A stretch of 24,000 nt of DNA from an archaeon GW2011_AR15. GTDB taxonomy: Archaea > Nanobdellota > Nanobdellia > Woesearchaeales > GW2011-AR15. The stretch covers positions 214,033 to 238,032 of the forward strand of contig CP010425.1 of the NCBI GenBank assembly GCA_000830295.1, in the 5' to 3' direction. Positions 413 to 18,011 of this stretch are shown here, one piece after another. Within the stretch, counting starts at the first letter, position 1. Each line of letters starts with the position of its first letter. Below the pieces are notes generated by a model. The model was not told the origin of the DNA, searched no databases, and saw nothing but the letters and a program-made list of their open reading frames with translations. The position numbers were made by a program, and so were the translations under genes.

Positions 413-1711
413 TTATACTTTGGCAAGCTCCTCTTCTATCACAGCCTCAAATGCTGAGTAAGGCTGCGCTCCCCTGACACTCTGTCCTATCACTGTTTTT
501 CCGTCAGCCTGTATCACACCAACTAAAAACCCTGGTGTGCCTGAAACTCCTGCACTCGTGCCTGCGCTGAAGTCGCTCTGGACCTCTGCCTGGTATTTTC
601 TTGAGTTAATACAATTGTTGAACAGTGATGTGTCCATGCCGAGCTCTTCAGCCCATGCCTTGTAGTTATCAGCACTTAATGAGTCCTGATTTTCGAACAG
701 CTTGTTATGGAATTCCCAGAACATTCCCTGTTCGTCTGCGCATTCTGCTGCCTCTGCTGCAGGTGTTGCCTGAGGATGTATGCTGCTCAGAGGAAAATCT
801 CTGTAAACAAACCGGATTTTCCCTGTGCTGATATAGTTCTGCTGTATTGAAGGCAGTGTCTCACTGTAAAACCTGCTGCAGTATGGGCACTGGAAGTCTG
901 ACCACTCTATTATCACAACCTTGGCTGATGCACTTCCCTTTGACGGATCATCATCTATGCTGCTTGTGTATTCTGTAGCCTGCGTTGGCTGTGTAGGCTG
1001 AGTAGGCTGCACTGGTGTTGGCTGTGCCTCCCCTGAAAGATGCCTGTCAATAACAGCCTTCAAATTGTCATATGGCTGTGCCCCCACAACTTTCTCTCCG
1101 CCTATGAAAAATGTAGGCGTGCCTGTAACTCCCCTGCTTGTTCCCTCATTGTAATCTGCCTGGACAACAGATGCCTTTTCCTTGCTGTCATAGCAGTCAT
1201 TGAATTTTGCAGTATTAAGGCCAAGATCTGCTGCGTGCTTTTTCAGGCTGGCTGTATCAAGGGCTTTTGTCTCAAAAAGCCTGTCATGATATTCCTCAAA
1301 TTTGCCCTGGTCTCGCGCACACTCTGAAGCCTCTGCTGCCTGCTGTGCCAATGGGTGCAGGCTGCTCAGTGGGAAATGCTTGTATACAAACGTCACCTGC
1401 CCCTCATACTCATCCAGCAGCTGTTTCACTGTTGGATATGCTCTCTGGCAGAACGGGCACTCAAAATCTGAAAACTCCTCAATAAGCAGTTCTCCATTGC
1501 TGCCTGTATTTGATTTCTTAAGGCTGTTGAGAAGTGACCCGACGCCGTTGCCCAAACCAAATCCGTTTGTAAGTACAGACAGGACCAACAATACTCCCAG
1601 CACAATTGCATAAGTCTTCCACATATCATCTTTAGGAGCTGCTTTCCCGGATGCTCCTTTTGCGGATGATCTTCTAGAAGCAGTTGACTTCTTTTTAGTG
1701 TTTTTAGCCAT
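413..1711 (-). CDS. Membrane-anchored tandem DsbA-like thiol:disulfide oxidoreductase with two thioredoxin-fold domains
   Basis: 432 aa with a basic N-terminus and one TM helix (YAIVLGVLLVLSVL). Two paralogous DsbA-like halves of about 150 aa carry CPFC (nt 1448-1459) and CPYC (nt 878-889) active sites. Each half also has a GTP(T/G)F cis-Pro loop motif. The halves are joined by a PTPVQPTQPTQPTQ linker (nt 974-1021). A GGGGG Shine-Dalgarno-like box lies about 10 nt upstream of the ATG. Confidence 0.85.
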   Translation of the reverse strand: MAKNTKKKSTASRRSSAKGASGKAAPKDDMWKTYAIVLGVLLVLSVLTNGFGLGNGVGSLLNSLKKSNTGSNGELLIEEFSDFECPFCQRAYPTVKQLLDEYEGQVTFVYKHFPLSSLHPLAQQAAEASECARDQGKFEEYHDRLFETKALDTASLKKHAADLGLNTAKFNDCYDSKEKASVVQADYNEGTSRGVTGTPTFFIGGEKVVGAQPYDNLKAVIDRHLSGEAQPTPVQPTQPTQPTQATEYTSSIDDDPSKGSASAKVVIIEWSDFQCPYCSRFYSETLPSIQQNYISTGKIRFVYRDFPLSSIHPQATPAAEAAECADEQGMFWEFHNKLFENQDSLSADNYKAWAEELGMDTSLFNNCINSRKYQAEVQSDFSAGTSAGVSGTPGFLVGVIQADGKTVIGQSVRGAQPYSAFEAVIEEELAKV

Positions 1712-1836
1712 TATTATATACCCCCTTTTGACAAAAGTATGGCTTAGCTAAATAGAATTGGTTTATATATTTTATCTAAATTTTAATTTTGGGAGAAACT
1801 TAAGTTTATAAAAAAATTTAAGAAAATTTCCGGAAA

Positions 1837-2073
1837 TTATCTTCTGGATTTGGTTTTCCTGGCTGCTTTCTTTGTTGCTTTTCTTGCATGTTTCTTGGCA
1901 GTCTTCTTGGCAGCTTTCCTGTAGCTTTTTTTTGCTGCCGGCTTTGCTCTTGCCTTTGTTTCGGTGCTTTTCTTGTTCTTGCAGACCTCACAATATAATG
2001 AGCCAGCATATTTTGGATAAAAGACTCCGCCGCATATCAGGCATTTCTTCCTTACTTTGTATAATTTTGCCAT
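1837..2073 (-). CDS. Small zinc-ribbon protein with a Lys/Ala-rich basic C-terminal tail
   Basis: 78 aa with CxxC-x14-CxxC (CLICG...CEVC). This is followed by about 45 aa of AAKK/ARK-type low complexity. It is co-directional and closely spaced, 37 nt after the upstream thioredoxin-like gene. Confidence 0.6.
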   Translation of the reverse strand: MAKLYKVRKKCLICGGVFYPKYAGSLYCEVCKNKKSTETKARAKPAAKKSYRKAAKKTAKKHARKATKKAARKTKSRR

Positions 2074-2110
2074 TTTGCTCTTTCTTGGAAAAACAAGTTA
2101 CTTTAAAAGG

Positions 2111-2503
2111 TTACTGTAAAAACGCCTCGCACCCCGCTTTCTGTGCAAGTTCCAGCAGGCCTCTTTCGCCATTAAGCTCTGAGCCGTCTGCAAATCTCCA
2201 TGTAGGGTAGCCTGTTATACCCTCATTCTGGCACAGTTCTGTCTGCGTCCTCTGGGCTGTTGAGCATTCAACATAGCCGCCTGCAGCAGCAAATGTATCC
2301 CATGAGTCCCCGAACAGTTTCTTATTGTTCTGGCAGTGCGGGCACCACCATGCGCCATACATCACAACCCCGTTATCAGCAAGACACTGTGCGAGTTCAT
2401 CATACTGGCCTGAGGAGCTGGCCGCGGATCTGAAAATCAAAAATCCAACAATAGCTACAGCAATTATAACAACGTAAACCAGATAGCTATTTTTCTTTTT
2501 CAT
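2111..2503 (-). CDS. Membrane-anchored thioredoxin-like protein resembling the Trx-like domain fused to VKOR homologues
   Basis: 130 aa with an N-terminal TM helix (LVYVVIIAVAIVGFLIF). The pattern MYGAWWCPHC..KKLFG..YVEC..C..GITGYPTW matches my memory of the Trx-like domain of cyanobacterial and plant VKOR homologues. The CPHC site is at nt 2333-2344. Confidence 0.75.
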   Translation of the reverse strand: MKKKNSYLVYVVIIAVAIVGFLIFRSAASSSGQYDELAQCLADNGVVMYGAWWCPHCQNNKKLFGDSWDTFAAAGGYVECSTAQRTQTELCQNEGITGYPTWRFADGSELNGERGLLELAQKAGCEAFLQ

Positions 2504-2572
2504 TAAATTTTCAGAAACATGGTAACGTGCACCATTTTAAATATGTTTTGTTTGTGGCTGCTGCCATAGTCA

Positions 2573-2587
2573 AAAAATATATAAAGG
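2573..2587 (+). promoter_or_regulatory. TATA-like box for the large surface-protein gene, in the 114-nt divergent intergenic region
   Basis: The sequence aaaaatatataaagg is centred about 37 nt upstream of the ATG at 2618. A second A/T box (catatttaaaatgg, about 2537-2550) faces the minus-strand thioredoxin-like gene. Confidence 0.45.
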
Positions 2588-2617
2588 CTCAAAGTCCTAA
2601 TACATAAACGATGAGGA

Positions 2618-5600
2618 ATGAGGGGTAGGGCCCATGATAGTACTATGGATAACTCTATACAACTTTTGTATAAGAAAGCAGGCATAAGGAGAATTCTGTT
2701 TCTTGTTGCGCTGTGTTTCTTTGTCTATTTCATGTTCCTCACTGTTTTGCCCGGAAATGAAAGGGTGATTGTGTGCGCTGCCAATGATAATTTCTGCACA
2801 GCATCAGACGGCGATACGGATGCAGGAGCATGCACTGCATATGGTACCTGTAATGGCGGTCCGGGATGGAGTCTGGGTTCTGGAGATTGTACTGGAGACG
2901 CCTCGTGTGCAACAACATCATGCTGTGGTGATGACGCGGGTGAAGCTGTTGTAGCGGAATCCTCAAGCACAGATACTCCTTCAGGATATAATGATGCTGT
3001 AACGGCATGCTGTAATGTCGCTACAGACTGCAATTACAATGGCGCCTGTGTAGCAACAGGAAGCGCAAGTTCTGCTTCCACACCGGATAAAGCCTACTGC
3101 GGGACAGGCAGCACATGGTACGGAGGGGATTACTCAGAAGATGCATGCACTGCTGTTGCAGGAACCGGCAGCTGGAATATAGGCGGAGAAATAAACACCA
3201 CTGTCTGCTGCGGCGACGACTCAGGAGAAAATAAAAATACAAGACAAGTAAGCGAAATCTCTATTGATAATGGGTTTGCTGATAATTCAAGCGATAAAGC
3301 ATGCTGTCTGGCAGGTGATTCATGCATCAGCTCGGGCACATGCTACGCAAACGGGACCTCACCTGCGGATGTGGACGGCGACGGAGATAATGATTACTGT
3401 GATGCAGGAACATGGCAAGACTGCAATTCAGATAGTGACTGTTCTCCCGGACTAATTTGCTCCTCAAACGACTGCACAGATGTAAACTTCCCTTATTTCA
3501 CATCAATACCTGGTGATGAAACAACAACATACGGTAATTGGGAGGGAGTTGATTTTAATGCTGATGATGCTATAGGCGTTGATACTTATGATGTTAACGA
3601 CACCAGATTTACAATAAACTCATCCGGGTTCCTTGACGAAGACTCCGCAGTGTCTGCCGGGGCCTACAGTTTAAATGTTTCTGTAAATGACACATCTGGA
3701 AATACAAACTCAACAATATTCACACTAACTGTAAACAAAGCAACGCCTTCACTCAGTCTGAATTTCAATAGTACCAGTGGGAATACCACAATATATACAG
3801 GAAGCTCTATGGTATTAAACGGCAGTATTGTGTCAGGGGACAGCGGCGCTGTATTGCAGCTCTATAATAATGGAACCCTGGCCGATCAGGCAGCCGGCGC
3901 AGTAATCAATGATACTTTATTCGGCAGTGCAGGTACGTATAACATAACTGTAGTTTACATGGAGAGCCAGAATTACACTTCGGGGAGCCTGTCATACTTC
4001 ATAGGTGTCAGCGACCCTGATTTAACAGCTCCATATTTCACATTAATCCCCTCAAATGCAACAATAACCTACGGAAGCTGGGCAGGTGTTGATTTCAATG
4101 CTGATGATAACATTGACATCGGCGACTATACTGTCAACGACAGCAGGTTTACAATAAGTTCCTCAGGGCTTCTTGATGATGTCTCTGTGGTTGCTGCCGG
4201 AACATACAGCCTGGATATCACTATAAATGACACATCTGGAAATACAAACTCAACAGTATTCGGGCTGACTGTCAACAGGGCAGCGTCTTCGCTTACCCTA
4301 ACCGTGAACAGCACATCAGGCAATTCAACTGTGCATCTAGGAAGCGCCATACTGCTTAATTCTACTATAGTATCAGGAGACACTGGTGCAACACTCCAGC
4401 TGTATAATAACGGGACATTAATCAATCAGGGAGCCGGATCAATAAGCAACAATACCCAGTTTAGCAGCAGCGGGCTGTATAACATAACTGCAGCCTATCC
4501 TGAAACCCAGAATTACACTTCAGGCAGCCAGACATATTATGTAACTGTTGCTGACATACTGCAGCCTTACTTTACCGCAATACCTTCCAATGAAAGCATA
4601 ATATACGGACAGAACTGGTCAGGCGCTGACTTTAATGCCACAGACAGCAATGGATTTGACTCCTATTCTGTAGCTGACAGCAGGTTTACAATAAATTCAT
4701 CAGGATTCCTTGATGACGCCGCAATACTTAATGCCAGCGAGTATCTTATTAACATAACAATAAATGACACTTCCGGGAATTATAACTCAGCTATATTCAA
4801 CCTGACTGTGTTCGCTGATTCAGATGGCGACGATATTGCAGATATAAATGACACTTTAAACGGAAATGAATCAACTCCTGCTGTCTCAGGGATAAACAAC
4901 CTGAATATAACCATAAGAGGGAACTCTTCAAGAGGAAGCTTCCAAGGCAGGCATCCTGTTGTAATCAAGGAGGATTCAGATGTTCTTGTAAACTTCAGCC
5001 ATAACTTCACAGCAGCACATCTTAACCTGAGCAAAGTGCACATAACAAAAGGGGATAACTTCATACTCCTGAATTTCTCAGGCCAGCTGCTGACAAATAA
5101 GACAGTGTATTTCGATGACAGCAGCTATATCAGCCTGTGCGTGAAAGATGCGCCTGTCTCTGCATCGTCTGATATAAGCGCCGCATGCACAGGAGCCAAT
5201 GAGACAGACTTTACATCATGCATCGGCAATTCAACAGGGACAACAATAAACAATATCACATGCTATGATGAAGGCTCAAGGTTTAAGTTTGACAACCTAC
5301 ATCATACAGGAATTAAGGGAAGCGCTGCTGCGGAAGAAGAGGAATCAGGAGGGAGCAGTTCTGGGGGCAGCAGCTCAGGGGGCTCTTCTGACCGCAAGTA
5401 TGATTTCTCTGTTACGCCTGAAAAGACCACGCTAGGAATAAAGCAGGGCGAGACAAGGGAATTCACATTAAGGGTTGCAAACAACAACTCATATAATATT
5501 GTGGTGAAAGCATGGTCAACCCTGGCTGAATTTATGACCCTCGAAGAGATAGATTACCATATCAGTGCAAATGACTATCAGGATATTGCTGTTATTGCTG

Positions 5601-6244
5601 CTGTCCCCAATGAAACAGAGCCGAAATCATATCTCGGTGATATAGTCTTCAGCTCCGGCAGCAGGACTCAATTTATTGATATAAGGATTGACGTTTTCCC
5701 CAAAGGCAGCCTGTTTGATATCATAACAGAGATGGACCAGAGATACGCTTCTGTCCTGCCAGGAGAATACCTGAAATTTGATGTCACTTTATTTAAATTC
5801 CTAGATGTTGCAACAGAGGATGTAACTATTGTATATCTAATCAAAGACACCTCCGGAAATGTGCTGTGGAAAGAGAGCGATACAAGGGCAGTGCACAAGG
5901 AGCTTGAGTACAACAGGGAGCTGAGGATTCCCTCAGACCTGCCTCCCGGGGATTACCTTCTGGAGACAAGCGTCAATTACCAGGGCAAGGCCGCAACCTC
6001 AGAACTCTCATTTACAGTTGTAAGCCCTGCTCCTGAGGCTCCGCCTGAAAACTATCTCTTCCAGATAGAGCTTCCTGCAATAAAGATTCCTGCAGAATTC
6101 TTTACTTCAAGAGCATTCATATCTGCCTTCCCAAGAGTGCTGCTTGTGGTGATTATTTTATTGTCAGGGTTAAAGCCTCCTGGAACTGCAAGGAAGGGAA
6201 AAAAAGCAGGAAAGGGGAATAAAAAGAGAAATTCTAAGTCATAG
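2618..6244 (+). CDS. Large cysteine-rich, sequon-dense cell-surface protein (putative adhesin or S-layer-associated glycoprotein)
   Basis: 1208 aa with an N-terminal hydrophobic helix (ILFLVALCFFVYFMFLTVL). About 25 Cys fall within aa 53-286. There are 2.5 tandem repeats of about 180 aa (aa 292-731). A SGGSSSGGSSSGGSS linker is followed by two further beta-rich segments. The C-terminus has a TM helix (VLLVVIILLSGL) and a basic tail (KGKKAGKGNKKRNSKS). I counted about 48 N-x-S/T sequons by hand. An alternative start is the ATG at 2645. Confidence 0.85.
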   Translation: MRGRAHDSTMDNSIQLLYKKAGIRRILFLVALCFFVYFMFLTVLPGNERVIVCAANDNFCTASDGDTDAGACTAYGTCNGGPGWSLGSGDCTGDASCATTSCCGDDAGEAVVAESSSTDTPSGYNDAVTACCNVATDCNYNGACVATGSASSASTPDKAYCGTGSTWYGGDYSEDACTAVAGTGSWNIGGEINTTVCCGDDSGENKNTRQVSEISIDNGFADNSSDKACCLAGDSCISSGTCYANGTSPADVDGDGDNDYCDAGTWQDCNSDSDCSPGLICSSNDCTDVNFPYFTSIPGDETTTYGNWEGVDFNADDAIGVDTYDVNDTRFTINSSGFLDEDSAVSAGAYSLNVSVNDTSGNTNSTIFTLTVNKATPSLSLNFNSTSGNTTIYTGSSMVLNGSIVSGDSGAVLQLYNNGTLADQAAGAVINDTLFGSAGTYNITVVYMESQNYTSGSLSYFIGVSDPDLTAPYFTLIPSNATITYGSWAGVDFNADDNIDIGDYTVNDSRFTISSSGLLDDVSVVAAGTYSLDITINDTSGNTNSTVFGLTVNRAASSLTLTVNSTSGNSTVHLGSAILLNSTIVSGDTGATLQLYNNGTLINQGAGSISNNTQFSSSGLYNITAAYPETQNYTSGSQTYYVTVADILQPYFTAIPSNESIIYGQNWSGADFNATDSNGFDSYSVADSRFTINSSGFLDDAAILNASEYLINITINDTSGNYNSAIFNLTVFADSDGDDIADINDTLNGNESTPAVSGINNLNITIRGNSSRGSFQGRHPVVIKEDSDVLVNFSHNFTAAHLNLSKVHITKGDNFILLNFSGQLLTNKTVYFDDSSYISLCVKDAPVSASSDISAACTGANETDFTSCIGNSTGTTINNITCYDEGSRFKFDNLHHTGIKGSAAAEEEESGGSSSGGSSSGGSSDRKYDFSVTPEKTTLGIKQGETREFTLRVANNNSYNIVVKAWSTLAEFMTLEEIDYHISANDYQDIAVIAAVPNETEPKSYLGDIVFSSGSRTQFIDIRIDVFPKGSLFDIITEMDQRYASVLPGEYLKFDVTLFKFLDVATEDVTIVYLIKDTSGNVLWKESDTRAVHKELEYNRELRIPSDLPPGDYLLETSVNYQGKAATSELSFTVVSPAPEAPPENYLFQIELPAIKIPAEFFTSRAFISAFPRVLLVVIILLSGLKPPGTARKGKKAGKGNKKRNSKS
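3491..4810 (+). repeat. In-frame tandem coding repeats: units 3491-4030, 4031-4564 and a partial unit 4565-4810
   Basis: Each unit starts with PYFT(S/L/A)IP. The periods are 540 and 534 nt. A 32-nt stretch is identical at 3684-3715 and 4224-4255 (taaatgacacatctggaaatacaaactcaaca). Confidence 0.9.
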
Positions 6245-6275: not shown

Positions 6276-6293
6276 CCAGAATAATATTTGGAT

Positions 6294-6740
6294 ATGAGTT
6301 TTTTAGGAGAGGTACTCACGAACAGGATAATTATAAGCGTAATCCTGACCTACATTGTAACAGGCGCCCTAAAGCTCCTTTTCTATTATCTTGGTACAGA
6401 TGAATGGAATTTTATGGTATTTTTCAGGACAGGAGGCATGCCAAGCAGCCATATTGCCTCTGTTACTGCTATGAGCGCCGCAATATACCACCTTGAAGGC
6501 GTCTCCAGTCTCTTCATTGTGGCGCTTATACTCAGCTCAATAGTGACTGTTGATGCAATCGGCGCAAGAAGGGCTGCCGGCCAGCAGGCTCAGGTCATCA
6601 ACAAGGTTGTTGATGAATTCAGGTATTTCAGGAAGTTCAGGACAAGGAGGCTCTATGAACTAATCGGGCATACCCCAAGACAGGCCCTTGTGGGATTTAT
6701 AATAGGCATTATAGTCGCGAGAATTGTCTTTATGTTCTAG
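6294..6740 (+). CDS. Divergent PAP2 / acid-phosphatase-related membrane protein (DUF212-type)
   Basis: The GGMPSSH motif and a polytopic hydrophobic profile are typical of the divergent PAP2 family. The ORF-track start at 6288 is a TTG, and the ATG is at 6294. Confidence 0.65.
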   Translation: MSFLGEVLTNRIIISVILTYIVTGALKLLFYYLGTDEWNFMVFFRTGGMPSSHIASVTAMSAAIYHLEGVSSLFIVALILSSIVTVDAIGARRAAGQQAQVINKVVDEFRYFRKFRTRRLYELIGHTPRQALVGFIIGIIVARIVFMF

Positions 6741-7198
6741 ATTAGTGCTATAACAATGCCAATGAACAGGTAGACGATATTATCCCTGACAGGAAGAATA
6801 AGGTTATAGGCTAAATTTTCTTTAGTGTCATAATATACTGATGCTGTAAGCAGCCCGAATATGAATATAAGGCCTGCTGCAAATGTGCCTGCTGTCTCAA
6901 ACAGTATCACTGCAAGAAGGCTGTATGCCAAAACATCATTATACGGCAGGTTTGATTTCACATCCCATAAAAAATACAGGACTGCAATTATCCCTGAAAG
7001 CGGTATTGAGATTGCAGGGCTTACTGCGAGGAACTTAAGGAAATAGAAGAAAACCAGGGACAGGACTACGGGCCTTGCAAAAATAAAGTATTTTTTCCCT
7101 GCTTTAAGCTCCTCTTTTGTGAAATGCGAGATTATTGTCCCGACCAGAAGCCCGGAATATGTTACCAGCAGGAGCAGGATATGGTTGAGTGTCAGCAT
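6737..7198 (-). CDS. Polytopic membrane protein of unknown function
   Basis: 153 aa with 4-5 hydrophobic helices. An A/T box (acaaatataaact) lies about 25 nt upstream. Its stop codon shares the CTAG palindrome with the stop of the convergent PAP2-like gene. Confidence 0.5.
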   Translation of the reverse strand: MLTLNHILLLLVTYSGLLVGTIISHFTKEELKAGKKYFIFARPVVLSLVFFYFLKFLAVSPAISIPLSGIIAVLYFLWDVKSNLPYNDVLAYSLLAVILFETAGTFAAGLIFIFGLLTASVYYDTKENLAYNLILPVRDNIVYLFIGIVIALI

Positions 7199-7233: not shown

Positions 7234-8388
7234 CTAAATTTTCTTAATATATCCCCTGACATATTTCAGTATCTCCTCTCCTGATGCTATGTTGAAGCTT
7301 ATTCCCCCTGCAGAATCGTGGCCTCCTCCTGAAAGCAGGGCGGCAGGGAACTCCTTCTTCAGCTTTTCCAGGAGGTCAACACCTTTAAAATCAACTCCGT
7401 CTGCCCTGTAGCTGATTGAATCTGCCGTAACTGCAAGCGTTATTTTGGGCCCCTCGACAAGCCTGTGGGATATCCCTATCAGTTTTGAGGATGCATATTC
7501 CCAGTCAGAGACAAGGCTTTTCTCTATTATGACTAATTTGAATTTTCCAAAATCCTCTATCTTTGCATATTTCTTTGCTGCTGCCCTTACTCTCTCTGTC
7601 TCCGCTTCAATCCTGGGATAGATTTCATTGATTATCCTGGTATTATTGGCTCCCGGCATGAACAAACCCTCAAGTATGTCTGTCCTCTCAGGGAATTTGA
7701 GGTAATAAGTATCATGGTCAATCACAGCTGCCCACTTCTCAAGCTCTTCTCTGGTGTATCCTGACAGCTTTACATACGCATCATTATCCTCTCCTGACGA
7801 CTTGTCAGCGACTCCTGAGAGACCCGGGAGATGCTCTATTCCCTTTAGTGCAGGGTCAAGTATGACAGCAAGTTCTGTTGCAAGTGCGCCTGCATTCAGC
7901 TCTGAGCCGAGCCCGAAAACATGAGGGTTCAGGAAGCTTACTGCCTCGTGCTTGTTTTCAGCATCGAACCTGTGGTGGTCTATTATTACAAATTCAATGC
8001 CGTATGTTTTCAGCCTCTTTATTGATGCCATGCTCTGCTCATTTGAGCCCAGGTCTGCAAGTATGATTAAAGGGGGCGTAGTGCTTTTTGAAGAAAGGAA
8101 ATTATTGAGGTCGCGCAGTGCATCTGTGTAATCATAGAATGGTGTCCTGCTGGACGTTCTCATAATGTTCCTGCTGTAGCCAATTGAATTCAGTGCTTTT
8201 TCAAGCACAAACCCTGCAGCATATCCGTCTACGTCGTTATGATGGCGTATTACTACGAACCTGTTCTCGGAAACAGCTTTTCTTATTACTGATTCTGCCT
8301 TCAGGAAAGCCTCTTTCATCTTTTCAAGGTTCCCGGAATCTATAAGAAAACCTTTCTTCCTGTCTTTCACAATGTCTTTTATCATCAT
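7234..8388 (-). CDS. DHH/DHHA1-family phosphoesterase (RecJ-like or NrnA-like)
   Basis: Motifs seen are HHNDVDGYAAG (motif I), ILADLGS (motif II), IIDHHR (DHH motif) and GGGHDSAGG (DHHA1). The likely start is the MMIKD ATG pair at 8388/8385. The ORF-track start at 8433 adds 15 aa overlapping the upstream ORF. Confidence 0.8.
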   Translation of the reverse strand: MMIKDIVKDRKKGFLIDSGNLEKMKEAFLKAESVIRKAVSENRFVVIRHHNDVDGYAAGFVLEKALNSIGYSRNIMRTSSRTPFYDYTDALRDLNNFLSSKSTTPPLIILADLGSNEQSMASIKRLKTYGIEFVIIDHHRFDAENKHEAVSFLNPHVFGLGSELNAGALATELAVILDPALKGIEHLPGLSGVADKSSGEDNDAYVKLSGYTREELEKWAAVIDHDTYYLKFPERTDILEGLFMPGANNTRIINEIYPRIEAETERVRAAAKKYAKIEDFGKFKLVIIEKSLVSDWEYASSKLIGISHRLVEGPKITLAVTADSISYRADGVDFKGVDLLEKLKKEFPAALLSGGGHDSAGGISFNIASGEEILKYVRGYIKKI

Positions 8389-8672
8389 CTTTCCAGAATA
8401 TTTCCGTAGTCCCTTTTTCCCGAGTCCTGCCACGGGCTGTGACCGTAATGGACAAGGAGGTCCACGCCGAGCCTCTTGACTTCAAGAGGGAGGTCGCAGC
8501 TGCCGTAGCATGAGCCGCCCCAGATTATTACCTGGGCCCCTGTCTGCTTTTCTATCTCTTCCTGCATTTTTTTTGCATCCGGCTTTATGCCGTCCGGAAG
8601 ATGAAGACAGACTGTCTTTGCTCCCTGCTTCTTTATCTCATCCACCAATCTCTTTATCTCAAGCTTATACAT
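8385..8672 (-). CDS. dph2: Truncated Dph2-like ORF: only the N-terminal ~90 aa of 2-(3-amino-3-carboxypropyl)histidine synthase; probable gene remnant
   Basis: The sequence YKLEIKRLVDEIKKQGAKTVCLHLPDGIK...VIIWGGSCYGSCD...LGVDLLVHYGHS aligns by eye to the first ~80 aa of archaeal Dph2. The ORF then ends after 16 unrelated residues. Full-length Dph2 is about 330 aa as I recall. The stop TGA overlaps the DHH start (AGATGATGA). Confidence 0.7.
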   Translation of the reverse strand: MYKLEIKRLVDEIKKQGAKTVCLHLPDGIKPDAKKMQEEIEKQTGAQVIIWGGSCYGSCDLPLEVKRLGVDLLVHYGHSPWQDSGKRDYGNILER

Positions 8673-8695
8673 ACTGCAAAGGGAGAAAGAGGCCA

Positions 8696-8706
8696 TATAT
8701 AAAAAT
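8696..8706 (-). promoter_or_regulatory. TATA-like box driving the dph2-fragment/DHH transcription unit
   Basis: The minus-strand sequence is tttttatatat. It is centred about 27 nt upstream of ATG 8672, implying a leaderless start at 8672. The ORF-track ATG at 8696 lies inside this box and is therefore unlikely to be the start. Confidence 0.4.
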
Positions 8707-10834: not shown

Positions 10835-11815
10835 ATGGATATTTTTAGCCCTGTCCGGTCATTTGCAGACCTTATTACCTATGATTTACTTAATCTGGGA
10901 AAGGACTCTTATCTCGGAAGTGCGGCAAATTTCTTCATATATGATGTAATAAAGATTGGTTTCCTCCTTCTGATAATAAACTATAGCATGGCAGTCATAA
11001 GATATTATTTCCCAATGGAAAAAGTAAAAAATATCCTGACAAAAAGAAGATGGCTCGGCCTGGATTATCTGTTTGCAGCCCTGCTCGGCGTCATAACTCC
11101 CTTTTGCTCATGCTCATCAATACCTCTCTTTATAGGCTTTGTAGGAGCAGGCATCCCGCTTGGAGTGACCTTTGCTTTCCTGATCAGCTCTCCGCTCGTG
11201 AATGAGGCCTCCCTTTATCTCTTCCCTGCAATGTTCGGGATAAAAGCTACCCTGATCTATAATATAATCGGAATTGCTGTAGCAGTAACCGGAGGGATGA
11301 TTATACAGAAGCTTAAGCTTGATAAATATGTAAGCCGGGAGCTATTGAAATTCAGGTCCAGGCTGCAAATCTTAAAAGAGCAGGGTGGCAGGCCGCTGCA
11401 GCTTAAAGAACTTGTTAGATACTGGTGGCAGGACGGATGGAATATAACAAGACAGGTTTTCCCTTATGTTCTGCTGGGCGTTGGCATCGGAGCTGCTATC
11501 CACGGGTTTGTCCCTGCCAGCCTGGCAGAAAGATACCTGTCTTCAAAAGAGTGGTGGGCAGTGCCTCTTGCAGTTCTCATCGGTGCGCCGTTTTATGCAA
11601 ATTCTGTAGGAGTCATCCCGGTAATGGAAGCACTGGTCGGAAAAGGAGTGCCTCTTGGGACTGCATTGGCATTCATGACGTCTATAGTAACTGTCTCAGT
11701 CCCCGAGCTACTAATCCTTAGAAAAGTTATGAAATGGCAGCTTCTAGCCACATTTTTGAGCATTACAATTATTGGAATTGTTATTATGGGGTATGCTTTG
11801 AATGCAATCCTATGA
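10835..11815 (+). CDS. Permease of the ArsP/DUF318 type (predicted two-repeat membrane transporter)
   Basis: 326 aa, polytopic. It has the TPFCSCSSIPLF motif characteristic of this family and sits directly downstream of the ArsR-family regulator. Confidence 0.7.
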   Translation: MDIFSPVRSFADLITYDLLNLGKDSYLGSAANFFIYDVIKIGFLLLIINYSMAVIRYYFPMEKVKNILTKRRWLGLDYLFAALLGVITPFCSCSSIPLFIGFVGAGIPLGVTFAFLISSPLVNEASLYLFPAMFGIKATLIYNIIGIAVAVTGGMIIQKLKLDKYVSRELLKFRSRLQILKEQGGRPLQLKELVRYWWQDGWNITRQVFPYVLLGVGIGAAIHGFVPASLAERYLSSKEWWAVPLAVLIGAPFYANSVGVIPVMEALVGKGVPLGTALAFMTSIVTVSVPELLILRKVMKWQLLATFLSITIIGIVIMGYALNAIL

Positions 11816-13188: not shown

Positions 13189-15087
<1,899 letters not shown>

Positions 15088-17750: not shown

Positions 17751-18011
17751 ATGAAAAGATACATTGTTTTGATCTCGCTTGTCTTTCTGATTGCTGTTAT
17801 TTCCGGATGTGCAACAGATGGGAACTATTCTAATGAAAATAATGGGGCAGACACTAATGAAACTGCACAGGACGGGAAATGTTCGCCAAATAACGATATA
17901 GTCTGCACCATGGAGTACAACCCTGTATGCTGCAACGGCAAAACATACAGCAATTCCTGCGTTGCAAGGGCAAACTGCGCTACAGATTGTGTGGCTGGGG
18001 AATGTAGCTAG
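17751..18011 (+). CDS. Secreted lipoprotein with a Kazal-like serine-protease-inhibitor core
   Basis: The signal peptide ends in a lipobox-like ISGC (Cys20). The mature part, C44-x7-C52-TMEYNPV-C60-CNGKTY-SNS-C70, reproduces the Cys spacing and the CT(L/M)EY.P.C...KTY.N.C signature of Kazal domains. There are 8 Cys in the mature part. Confidence 0.7.
   Translation: MKRYIVLISLVFLIAVISGCATDGNYSNENNGADTNETAQDGKCSPNNDIVCTMEYNPVCCNGKTYSNSCVARANCATDCVAGECS

What the first reader, a model, noticed from the sequence alone, without database searches (positions are those of the whole stretch)
413..6244. Oxidative-folding gene trio divergently paired with a cysteine-rich giant surface protein
Three consecutive minus-strand genes share a 114-nt divergent promoter region with a 1208-aa surface protein. 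They are a membrane-anchored WCPHC thioredoxin-like protein (2111-2503), a zinc-ribbon/KA-tail protein (1837-2073) and a membrane-anchored double DsbA (413-1711). The surface protein's first ~290 residues contain about 25 cysteines. All three envelope proteins have an N-terminal anchor helix, which would place the redox domains and the Cys-rich region on the same extracytoplasmic side. A second small secreted protein with 8 Cys (the Kazal-like lipoprotein at 17751) lies in the same window. This looks like a machinery-plus-client arrangement for extracellular disulfide formation. No quinone-linked re-oxidase (VKOR or DsbB) is visible in the window, so how the CxxC proteins are re-oxidised is open.
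Basis: partly seen in the sequence, partly recalled or inferred. Interest (0 to 1): 0.7.

Follow-up and report, generated by a model that had tools for sequence, protein, structure and literature searches.

The report
Archaeal disulfide-forming genes beside cysteine-rich protein
A tiny groundwater archaeon (Woesearchaeota GW2011_AR15) carries membrane-anchored disulfide-forming enzymes next to a cysteine-packed surface protein, but comparison with related genomes shows the enzymes are a general toolkit, and their position beside this protein is a local accident rather than a conserved partnership.

Summary
All four ORFs, the 114-nt divergent spacer, the N-terminal anchors and 25 Cys in residues 45-300 of the 1208-aa protein are there.

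- The 130-aa protein is the thioredoxin-like domain plus last membrane helix (TM5) of a bacterial VKOR, encoded as a separate gene. PDB 3KP8/3KP9 match at E 1e-15, and Foldseek gives TM 0.86.
- This standalone family has six invariant Cys. In CPR bacteria it sits directly upstream of dsbB or vkor in at least 53 of 66 loci. It does so in 0 of 12 DPANN archaeal loci.
- In archaea it pairs instead with anchored DsbA-like or GILT-like proteins and a conserved zinc-ribbon gene.

The client half is not supported.
- Relatives keep the enzyme cluster without the surface protein.
- A paralogue in the same genome, and homologues elsewhere, lie far from any DsbA or Trx gene, for example at the head of pilus-like operons.

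The Cys-rich region consists of about two full copies, plus a partial leading segment, of an undescribed ~95-aa, 8-Cys "CCGDD" repeat. This repeat is common in large DPANN proteins, and its cysteines are conserved.

No VKOR, DsbB or MauE lies within 34 kb. The whole genome could not be scanned, so how the enzymes are re-oxidised remains open.

The parts
413..1711 (-). Membrane-anchored tandem DsbA. It has a cytoplasmic Lys/Arg-rich N-terminus, a TM at about aa 29-55, DsbA domain 1 (CPFC at 85-88), a PTQ-rich linker at about 228-246, and DsbA domain 2 (CPYC at 275-278). Each domain carries a second Cys pair (131/173 and 324/367).
   Evidence: Pfam Thioredoxin_4 6e-60 (2 stretches) and DSBA 1e-43. 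NCBIfam Rcas_1661 family scores 224 bits against a cut-off of 190. Best PDB sequence hits are MdbA 4PWP/7UNN at 1e-21 and BdbD at 5e-17. The two domains are 43% identical. Topology. A relative has a 73% identical copy (L012).
1837..2073 (-). Small cytoplasmic zinc-ribbon protein (CLIC...CEVC) with a Lys/Ala-rich tail. Function unknown. Conserved gene partner of the TM-Trx in Woesearchaeota.
   Evidence: No family above threshold. No TM helix. Homologues lie immediately downstream of the Trx gene in L012, L018 and L098 (E about 1e-26).
2111..2503 (-). Standalone VKOR-type thioredoxin-like protein: an N-terminal TM helix equivalent to VKOR TM5, plus a Trx domain with WCPHC (54-57) and two further Cys pairs (80/91 and 40/125).
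   Evidence: PDB phmmer hits 3KP8 at 1.1e-15 and 3KP9 at 2.1e-15, aligned over residues 7-124 against 163-276. AlphaFold pLDDT 90.5. Foldseek top hit 3KP8 at E 6.7e-9, TM 0.86, rmsd 1.7 A, five orders of magnitude ahead of ordinary thioredoxins. All six Cys are invariant in 36 homologues.
2504..2617 (.). 114-nt divergent intergenic region. It has two AT-rich TATA-like boxes, tttaaata at about 2536-2543 and aaatatataaa at about 2575-2585, each about 30-45 nt from one of the two start codons.
   Evidence: Read directly from the sequence. Promoter function is inferred only; no archaeal promoter tool was available.
2618..6244 (+). 1208-aa membrane-anchored glycoprotein-like surface protein. Layout: N-terminal signal/anchor, Cys-rich CCGDD modules, three tandem ~180-aa Ig-like repeats (aa 300-731), a 4-Cys region (841-882), a Ser/Gly linker, a beta-sandwich C-terminal domain, a C-terminal TM and a Lys-rich tail. 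It has 48 N-x-S/T sequons.
   Evidence: Weak Pfam hits to Wzt_C (3.9e-8), DUF4625, He_PIG and Big_13. Identified as QT06_C0001G0281 / HA239_05295 of archaeon GW2011_AR15.
2750..3517 (+). Cys-rich region (aa 45-300, 25 Cys): about two full copies, plus a partial leading segment, of an undescribed ~95-aa repeat. Consensus: WxIGGE-x5-CCGDDxxE...ACCxxxxDCVxxxxCYxxG...YCxxGxW...C.
   Evidence: phmmer against 1.84 billion cluster representatives gave at least 150 hits, 89 below 1e-10, including one 6834-aa protein with 16-19 copies. Seven Cys columns are 96-100% conserved and an eighth about 78%. No Pfam or NCBIfam family. AlphaFold pLDDT 84.6, pTM 0.77. No PDB fold match with E below 1.
6098..6244 (+). 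C-terminal TM anchor (aa 1161-1188) and cytoplasmic Lys-rich tail of the surface protein.
   Evidence: Hydropathy 2.34 over aa 1161-1188, followed by KPPGTARKGKKAGKGNKKRNSKS.
6288..7198 (.). DUF212 (divergent PAP2) gene at 6288-6740(+) and a Cys-free multi-TM gene at 6737-7198(-). Both are syntenic neighbours of the Trx cluster in relatives.
   Evidence: Pfam DUF212 1.1e-34. The same pair sits next to the GILT-like/Trx genes in L006, L007 and L018. This shows that the surface gene occupies the slot which relatives fill with a GILT-like oxidoreductase.
17751..18011 (+). 86-aa predicted lipoprotein (lipobox ISGC) with 8 further Cys, marginally Kazal-like. A second plausible disulfide client, 11 kb away.
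   Evidence: Pfam Kazal_1 2.2e-4, 21.6 bits against a cut-off of 21.

Best explanation
The minus-strand genes encode a general extracytoplasmic thiol-disulfide oxidoreductase set of a DPANN archaeon. The set comprises a tandem DsbA tethered to the outer face of the membrane, and a tethered thioredoxin-like protein that is the detached TM5-plus-Trx module of a bacterial-type VKOR.

Proposed mechanism, by analogy with VKOR-Trx fusions and DsbA/DsbB:
- Secreted proteins emerge with reduced cysteines.
- The DsbA domains, the CPHC Trx, or both take their electrons and leave disulfides.
- The Trx module normally hands the electrons to a membrane quinone reductase (DsbB or VKOR).
- In this archaeon no such partner is encoded nearby. 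The acceptor is therefore either a gene elsewhere in the 1.16-Mb genome or something non-canonical.

The cysteine-rich surface protein is very probably a substrate, as any exported 25-Cys domain would be. Its position next to the enzymes is a lineage-specific rearrangement, not a dedicated enzyme-client operon.

Shown: the homologies, fold, conserved cysteines, gene-neighbourhood statistics and non-conservation of the adjacency. Inferred: topology, oxidase rather than reductase direction, the DsbA-to-Trx relay, and substrate status.
For: Homology and fold:
- Trx matches the VKOR Trx-like domain including TM5.
- DsbA domains are closest to the MdbA and BdbD oxidases.
- Both proteins have positive-inside N-termini followed by one TM.

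Family neighbourhoods:
- In CPR bacteria, 53 of 66 complete loci have dsbB (45) or vkor (8) within 100 bp downstream on the same strand. Another 9 have one elsewhere in the locus.
- In archaeal loci the figure is 0 of 12 (Fisher P about 1e-7; the loci are not phylogenetically independent).

The Trx plus DsbA-like pairing recurs: window, L012, L030, L070, L098, L128, L141, L148, L152, L155 and L175.

Adjacency to the surface gene is not conserved:
- L006, L007, L018 and L098 have a distantly homologous anchored GILT/DsbA-like protein immediately upstream of the Trx gene. In L006, L007 and L018 it fills the slot between the Trx and DUF212 genes where the window has the surface gene (L098 is cut by its contig end).
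- The same-genome paralogue G0990 and its orthologue head type-IV-pilus-like operons without DsbA or Trx.
- L177 has none either.

Client plausibility:
- Cys density is 26-fold above background.
- The Cys columns are conserved.
- The region has a confident fold.
Against: - No re-oxidase was found in 34 kb, so an oxidative cycle is incomplete as seen.
- Woesearchaeota are generally regarded as anaerobic fermenters without quinone synthesis (my own knowledge, not tested here). That makes a quinone-linked pathway awkward.
- The redox direction of the CxxC sites was not measured. Several PDB hits for DsbA domain 1 are ScsC-type copper-stress proteins (E 1e-10 to 1e-12).
- The nearest relative (L012) could not be checked for the surface gene.
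- The divergent 114-nt spacer could still give co-regulation in this species.
Confidence: 0.62

Rival explanations
1. The trio is a dedicated folding machine for the adjacent surface protein, co-regulated from the shared 114-nt divergent promoter region, like DsbL/DsbI next to their substrate AssT in uropathogenic E. coli.
For: The genes are physically adjacent, and two TATA-like boxes lie back to back in 114 nt. The N-terminal domain is extremely Cys-rich. All products sit on the same side of the membrane. The same arrangement appears in several same-species contigs (L001, L002, L004, L005).
Against: The adjacency was not found in any other lineage examined.
- Among the other roughly 90 Trx loci and 80 DsbA loci, none has a CCGDD protein.
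- Three of three other CCGDD loci lack DsbA or Trx, including a paralogue in the same genome.
- Synteny indicates that the surface gene replaced a GILT-like gene.
- Short divergent spacers are common in compact genomes.
Confidence: 0.15
2. The CxxC proteins act as reductases, isomerases or envelope stress protectants (ScsC-like, DsbC-like or TlpA-like) rather than as net disulfide donors. They would repair mis-oxidised or metal-damaged cysteines of surface proteins.
For: DsbA domain 1 hits ScsC and copper-resistance proteins at E 1e-10 to 1e-12. Related islands (L030, L070) contain a cupredoxin and a metal-type regulator-like gene. No oxidase partner is nearby. Relatives carry monothiol CPYG domains, which cannot form an active-site disulfide alone.
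Against: - No CcdA/DsbD-type electron importer was seen in the window.
- The best hits overall are oxidases (MdbA, BdbD, VKOR-Trx).
- The Trx family is coupled to DsbB or VKOR, which oxidise, in at least 53 bacterial loci.
- The CPHC dipeptide is the one found in E. coli DsbA and Synechococcus VKOR-Trx.
Confidence: 0.15
3. The cluster is a quinone-independent, VKOR-orphaned oxidative system specific to DPANN archaea. The Trx module has lost DsbB and VKOR and is re-oxidised by another route: dissolved oxidants, a host-supplied quinone pool at the cell contact, or an unrecognised membrane protein.
For: None of 12 archaeal Trx loci has an adjacent DsbB or VKOR, against at least 53 of 66 bacterial loci. 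No VKOR, DsbB or MauE lies in 34 kb. An unannotated 4-5 TM protein with a membrane-embedded APACPxCA motif sits between DsbA and Trx in L030, L070 and L152. As a precedent, Staphylococcus aureus DsbA has no DsbB (my own knowledge).
Against: - The whole genome was not searched.
- L030 and L152 do have a VKOR within 0.5-3 kb of the Trx, so archaeal-type relatives can encode one.
- Lack of adjacency is not absence.
- The VKOR profile search listed only the top 120 of 815 hits, so it was uninformative.
Confidence: 0.2

Closest known systems
Synechococcus sp. VKOR with fused C-terminal thioredoxin-like domain (PDB 3KP8, 3KP9, 4NV5)
   Same: The 130-aa protein aligns to TM5 plus the Trx-like domain (E 1e-15; Foldseek TM 0.86; 42% identity). 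It has the same WCPHC site and the same second Cys pair in the ECS...C segment. That domain is the periplasmic electron shuttle between substrates and the VKOR core.
   Different: - Here the module is a separate gene with no VKOR core in 34 kb.
- It has a third invariant Cys pair (C40/C125).
- In CPR bacteria the standalone form precedes the partner gene instead of following it.
- In CPR bacteria that partner is usually DsbB, which is not a VKOR.
Actinobacterial MdbA/VKOR pathway (Corynebacterium diphtheriae and Actinomyces MdbA, PDB 4PWP, 4PWO, 7UNN)
   Same: These are the closest solved relatives of the DsbA domains (E 1e-21). They are membrane-tethered by one N-terminal helix and fold secreted proteins. 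MdbA is known to fold pilins (my own knowledge). A CCGDD paralogue here heads a pilus-like operon.
   Different: The domain is duplicated in tandem. The organism is archaeal. No VKOR partner was identified. An extra TM-Trx gene sits in the cluster.
Substrate-adjacent dedicated Dsb pairs (E. coli DsbL/DsbI with AssT; my own knowledge)
   Same: An oxidoreductase gene sits physically next to a gene for a probable substrate.
   Different: In those systems the co-location is conserved and includes the membrane re-oxidase. Here the co-location is not conserved, and no re-oxidase is present.
Staphylococcus aureus DsbA (CPYC, no DsbB in the genome; PDB 3BCI)
   Same: It has a DsbA with the CPYC motif, as in domain 2, and is a PDB hit at 2e-8. 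It functions without a dedicated membrane oxidase (my own knowledge).
   Different: It is a lipoprotein rather than TM-anchored, has a single domain, and is bacterial.
NCBIfam NF041057 Rcas_1661 family thioredoxin-like (seleno)lipoprotein
   Same: The 432-aa protein scores 224 bits against a cut-off of 190, with both domains matching. Multi-domain (2-3x) versions are common in metagenomes.
   Different: There is no lipobox and no selenocysteine. It has a long basic N-terminus plus a TM anchor instead.

Membership tests
VKOR-associated thioredoxin-like domain | Thioredoxin fold with a CxxC site, closest in sequence and structure to the VKOR C-terminal domain | tested here: met
   phmmer gives 3KP8 at 1.1e-15. 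Foldseek gives 3KP8 at E 6.7e-9, TM 0.86, while ordinary thioredoxins score E of about 1e-3 or worse.
VKOR-associated thioredoxin-like domain | Preceded by a TM helix equivalent to VKOR TM5 that places the domain outside the cytoplasm | tested here: met
   The alignment covers residues 7-124 against 163-276 of 3KP9. AlphaFold predicts a helix at 7-27. MKKK precedes the helix. The side of the membrane is inferred from the positive-inside rule.
VKOR-associated thioredoxin-like domain | Four conserved cysteines: CxxC plus a second pair | tested here: met
   C54, C57, C80 and C91 are invariant in 36 sequences, as are C40 and C125. PMC4555120 describes the four-Cys feature.
VKOR-associated thioredoxin-like domain | Fused to, or encoded next to, a VKOR catalytic core | tested here: not met
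   No VKOR lies in the window plus 10 kb. It is adjacent in CPR loci L008, L009, L016 and others. The rest of the genome was not searchable.
DsbA (Pfam PF01323 / PF13462) | Profile score above the curated cut-off | tested here: met
   Thioredoxin_4 scores 202.6 bits against 23.2. DSBA scores 149.9 bits against 25.6. There are two domains.
DsbA (Pfam PF01323 / PF13462) | CPxC active site and a cis-Pro loop (T/V-P) in each domain | tested here: met
   CPFC at 85-88 with TGTP at 197-199. CPYC at 275-278 with SGTP at 391-393. Read from the sequence. The cis conformation itself was not tested.
DsbA (Pfam PF01323 / PF13462) | Extracytoplasmic location | tested here: inconclusive
   There is a single TM after a 28-residue segment with 9 K/R and no positive charge after it. 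This is a prediction only; no dedicated topology predictor was available.
DsbA (Pfam PF01323 / PF13462) | Re-oxidised by a cognate membrane enzyme (DsbB, VKOR or MauE) | not testable with these tools
   None was found in 34 kb. The VKOR profile search listed only CPR proteins, none on the 1,157,790-bp contig. The complete genome could not be scanned.
DsbA (Pfam PF01323 / PF13462) | Net oxidase activity towards substrate thiols | not testable with these tools
   This needs redox potential measurement or genetic complementation.
Dedicated enzyme-substrate Dsb locus | Co-location of the oxidoreductase genes with the substrate gene is conserved across related genomes | tested here: not met
   The surface gene is absent in L006, L007, L018 and L098. 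No other Trx locus (about 90) and none of the 80 DsbA loci has a CCGDD protein. CCGDD loci L014/L015, L176 and L177 have no DsbA or Trx.
Kazal-type inhibitor domain (PF00050), for the 17751 lipoprotein | Profile score above the gathering cut-off | tested here: inconclusive
   21.6 bits against a cut-off of 21, E 2.2e-4, covering profile positions 1-31 of 49 only.

The most novel reading that the evidence does not exclude
DPANN archaea such as GW2011_AR15 form extracellular disulfides with a VKOR-derived thioredoxin module that has lost both VKOR and DsbB. The module works with anchored DsbA/GILT-like proteins and passes electrons to a non-canonical acceptor. Candidates are an unrecognised membrane CPxC protein, host-derived quinones, or dissolved oxidants. 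This would be a quinone-synthesis-independent oxidative folding pathway, and it would supply the many CCGDD-repeat surface proteins these episymbionts use at the cell surface.
Probability: 0.2. Interest if true: 0.75.

Novelty: new variant of a known kind. Interest (0 to 1): 0.48.

Why it matters
Disulfide formation outside the cell is well mapped in bacteria and hardly at all in archaea, least of all in the tiny DPANN lineages that depend on surface contact with hosts. Three testable points come out of this locus.

1. The TM5-plus-Trx module of VKOR exists as a free-standing gene family across CPR bacteria and DPANN archaea. In bacteria it is wired interchangeably to DsbB or VKOR, which are non-homologous enzymes. 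That bears on how partner specificity evolves.
2. The archaeal members lack that wiring. This poses a clear question about the terminal electron acceptor in organisms thought to lack quinone synthesis.
3. A widespread, unannotated 8-Cys repeat builds much of the large surface proteins of these archaea, and it gives the pathway obvious substrates.

The specific idea of a dedicated enzyme-client pair, which made the finding attractive, does not hold.

Tried and rejected
- **Looking for the re-oxidase nearby.** I ran phmmer --max with CPR VKOR and DsbB sequences against six-frame ORFs of the window and of L001. Nothing scored better than E 0.09. Pfam at E up to 1 on all window membrane proteins gave no VKOR, DsbB, MauE or DoxX hit.
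- **Genome-wide VKOR check.** I used the contig-length field of the big protein search as a marker for the same genome. Of 815 hits only the top 120 were listed, all Patescibacteria, so this was inconclusive. The marker itself works: the paralogue P0196 shows 1,157,790 bp.
- **MauE as a third oxidase** (bioRxiv 10.64898/2026.03.05.709764). The MauE/DoxX-like gene in L006 has no cysteine, and the window has no such gene. Rejected.
- **The ArsP_1 permease at 10835-11815.** Its CSC motif was considered as a membrane thiol protein. It is an ArsR/ArsP-type module. Rejected as unrelated.
- **Word-indexed search with the Cys-rich region.** It found only one fragment. The exhaustive HMMER search was needed.
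- **Disulfide connectivity.** Model coordinates are not exposed, so the connectivity of the CCGDD module could not be read.
- **tRNA and Rfam scans of the window.** Both were empty.
- **Literature searches** for DPANN or CPR oxidative folding found nothing specific.

Full report
**Provenance.** Exact-sequence look-ups place the window in archaeon GW2011_AR15 (Candidatus Woesearchaeota). It lies on a 1,157,790-bp contig, QT06_C0001. The zinc-ribbon gene is G0279 and the surface protein is G0281, also tagged HA239_05295. The same sequence occurs in Rifle-type groundwater metagenomes. Other genes in the window fit an archaeon: a CCA-adding enzyme-like ORF, RNase P Rpr2 and a DHH/RecJ-like protein. 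There are no tRNA or Rfam hits.

**Observation.**
- The four ORFs and the 114-nt spacer are exactly as described.
- The 432-aa protein has two DsbA/Thioredoxin_4 domains with CPFC and CPYC motifs. The domains are 43% identical to each other.
- The 130-aa protein is a thioredoxin fold with WCPHC.
- The 78-aa protein is a CxxC...CxxC zinc ribbon with a Lys/Ala tail and no TM helix.
- The 1208-aa protein has 25 Cys between residues 45 and 300 (9.8%). Nineteen other proteins of the window average 0.38% (P about 5e-27).
- Hydropathy and charge distribution give each of the three envelope proteins a basic N-terminus followed by one helix, so N-in and C-out.
- The surface protein also has a C-terminal TM and a Lys-rich tail, 48 N-glycosylation sequons and three tandem ~180-aa repeats.

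**What the small thioredoxin is.**
- Against all PDB sequences, its best matches by ten orders of magnitude are the thioredoxin-like domain of Synechococcus VKOR alone (3KP8, E 1.1e-15) and in the full enzyme (3KP9).
- In the full enzyme the alignment starts in the anchor helix. Query residues 7-124 align to VKOR residues 163-276, which is TM5 plus the domain.
- An AlphaFold model built from 36 homologues has pLDDT 90.5. It superposes on 3KP8 with TM 0.86 and rmsd 1.7 A. Ordinary thioredoxins score about five orders of magnitude worse.
- All six cysteines are invariant in the family.
- The gene is therefore a detached VKOR TM5-plus-Trx module.

**What the family does elsewhere.**
- Homologues are all standalone ~130-aa proteins from Woesearchaeota and other DPANN archaea, and from CPR/Patescibacteria.
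- I fetched 80 loci from species-representative genomes and scanned them with my own HMMs for VKOR, DsbB, DsbA, GILT-like and CCGDD domains.
- In 53 of 66 complete bacterial loci the Trx gene is followed within 100 bp, on the same strand, by dsbB (45 loci) or vkor (8 loci). Nine more have one elsewhere in the locus. Pfam pre-computed hits confirm the calls for L008-L011.
- In 12 archaeal loci none is adjacent, and one (L030) has a VKOR 2.8 kb away (Pfam 1.2e-26). Fisher P is about 1e-7. The loci are not phylogenetically independent.
- The family is therefore the extracytoplasmic partner of a quinone reductase in bacteria, and remarkably it works with either of two non-homologous reductases. 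In archaea this coupling is not visible.

**What it pairs with in archaea.**
- In the window and in L012 (Trx and DsbA both 73% identical) the order is Trx, zinc ribbon, tandem DsbA.
- In L006, L007 and L018 an N-anchored 620-650-aa protein with GILT/DsbA-like domains lies immediately upstream of the Trx. Those domains carry CPYG in place of CxxC, and the protein also has a central CPDC/CAEC thioredoxin-like segment. It aligns weakly to the window DsbA, including the anchor (E 7e-9).
- L098 has GILT-like, Trx, zinc ribbon and a single-domain DsbA in a row.
- The zinc-ribbon gene follows the Trx gene in all four of these Woesearchaeota-type arrangements.
- In a scan of 80 metagenomic DsbA loci, the TM-Trx was co-located in 7.
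- The recurrent unit is therefore TM-Trx plus an anchored DsbA-like protein, plus the zinc ribbon in this clade.

**Is the surface protein a dedicated client?** The comparative evidence says no.
- *Machinery side.* L006, L007 and L018 keep the DUF212 gene and the Cys-free 4-TM gene that flank the window's surface gene (window 6288-7198). The slot between them and the Trx holds the GILT-like oxidoreductase, not a surface protein. Among the other roughly 90 Trx loci and 80 DsbA loci, none has a CCGDD protein.
- *Client side.* The closest homologue of the Cys-rich region (P0196, 74% identical) is a paralogue in the same genome, QT06_C0001G0990. It is the first gene of a type-IV-pilus-like operon (five small ORFs, a T2SSE ATPase and T2SSF proteins) with no DsbA or Trx within 6 kb. 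Its orthologue in another genome has the same context (L176). A Nanoarchaeota homologue has no DsbA or Trx either (L177).
- *Limits.* L012, the one relative close enough to be decisive, is cut 43 nt upstream of the Trx gene. Two TATA-like boxes in the 114-nt spacer allow co-regulation in this species but do not demonstrate it.

**The Cys-rich region itself.**
- An exhaustive HMMER search of 1.84 billion cluster representatives found at least 150 proteins, 89 of them below 1e-10. Named examples come from Woesearchaeota, Nanoarchaeota and Undinarchaeales.
- The region resolves into a ~95-aa unit. I found 381 units in 149 proteins, with up to 16-19 in one 6834-aa protein.
- Seven Cys columns are 96-100% conserved and an eighth about 78%. 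The motif is WxIGGE...CCGDDxxE...ACCxxxxDC...C...YCxxGxW...C.
- No Pfam or NCBIfam model matches.
- AlphaFold on residues 81-290 with a 22-sequence alignment gives pLDDT 84.6 and pTM 0.77, mostly short strands.
- Foldseek finds no PDB fold with E below 1. Only insignificant resemblances to eukaryotic disulfide-rich modules appear.
Pairing could not be read because coordinates are not exposed.

**Re-oxidation.**
- No VKOR, DsbB or MauE lies in the window plus 10 kb.
- A profile search for VKOR listed only CPR proteins in its top 120 and none from the 1.16-Mb contig, which is uninformative.
- Relatives can encode VKOR near the cluster (L030 and L152).
- Those islands and L070 also carry an unannotated 165-172-aa, 4-5-TM protein with a membrane-embedded APACP[AS]CA motif between the DsbA and Trx genes. 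It is a candidate additional redox component. It is absent from the window.
- Whether GW2011_AR15 has any membrane oxidase is the decisive open point. It needs a whole-proteome scan, which I could not run.

**Verdict.**
- The locus encodes a bona fide extracytoplasmic oxidative-folding set of a known kind in an unusual configuration: a VKOR-orphaned Trx module plus a tandem DsbA in a DPANN archaeon.
- It lies beside a surface protein built on an undescribed 8-Cys repeat.
- The enzymes are best read as general machinery, and the adjacency as a lineage-specific rearrangement.
- Interest is moderate. The pairing idea fails. The modular Trx family, its loss of DsbB/VKOR coupling in archaea and the CCGDD repeat are useful and testable leads.

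Noticed in passing
L030:8933-9451(-), L070:7379-7876(+), L152:3845-4357(+): An unannotated 165-172-aa protein with 4-5 TM helices and a membrane-embedded APACP[AS]CA motif sits between the DsbA and TM-Trx genes in three loci. The copies are 48% identical (E 2e-43). There is no Pfam or NCBIfam hit. It is a candidate new membrane redox partner. The same islands hold DoxX-like, cupredoxin and TM-plus-winged-helix genes, and VKOR in two of the three.
   Followed up: partly
window 1837-2073(-); L012:450-758; L018:7294-7578; L098:2134-2337: A small zinc-ribbon protein with a Lys-rich tail is conserved immediately downstream of the TM-Trx gene in Woesearchaeota-type loci (E about 1e-26). It has no TM helix and no known family. 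Why a cytoplasmic basic protein is tied to an exported oxidoreductase is unexplained.
   Followed up: partly
L006:5098-6999, L007:5057-7000, L018:4961-6835, L098:1-1683: N-anchored 620-650-aa proteins have two GILT/DsbA-like domains whose active site reads CPYG (second Cys replaced by Gly), plus a central CPDC/CAEC thioredoxin-like segment and 21-25 Cys. They always sit directly upstream of the TM-Trx gene.
   Followed up: partly
L014/L015:6001-15189; L176:8001-18556: A ~1060-1170-aa CCGDD-repeat protein (in GW2011_AR15: QT06_C0001G0990) is the first gene of a conserved operon. The operon has five small ORFs, a T2SSE-type ATPase and two T2SSF-type membrane proteins, and is preceded by glycosyltransferase and radical-SAM/SPASM genes. 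This suggests a pilus-associated adhesin.
   Followed up: partly
loci L010, L011, L020-L095 (CPR bacteria): A VKOR-type Trx-like protein is paired with DsbB, not VKOR, in about 45 CPR genomes, and with VKOR in about 8. One partner family therefore serves two non-homologous quinone reductases. In L155 a DsbA gene precedes the Trx-DsbB pair, so the Trx does not simply replace DsbA.
   Followed up: partly
L070:7890-8360; L030:8292-8936: In L070 a C2H2-type zinc finger is fused to the cytoplasmic N-terminus of the TM-Trx. In L030 a separate 214-aa C2H2-finger-plus-TM protein lies next to the Trx gene.
   Followed up: no
window 8385-8696(-): A 103-aa ORF matches only a fragment of diphthamide synthase (PF01866). 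It overlaps the start of the DHH/RecJ-like gene at 7234-8433. It may be a truncated or split Dph2.
   Followed up: no
window 17751-18011(+): An 86-aa predicted lipoprotein has 8 Cys after the lipobox. It only just reaches the Kazal_1 threshold (21.6 bits against 21). A Kazal-like inhibitor in an archaeon would be unusual, but the call is weak.
   Followed up: partly
window 10835-11815(+) and L001:938-1186: An ArsP_1-type permease with a TPFCSCSS motif lies next to a small ArsR/HTH_5 regulator. This is a likely metalloid-resistance pair, unrelated to the finding.
   Followed up: no
window 13189-15081(-): A full-length bacterial-type DNA gyrase B subunit (630 aa) is present in this DPANN archaeon.
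   Followed up: no
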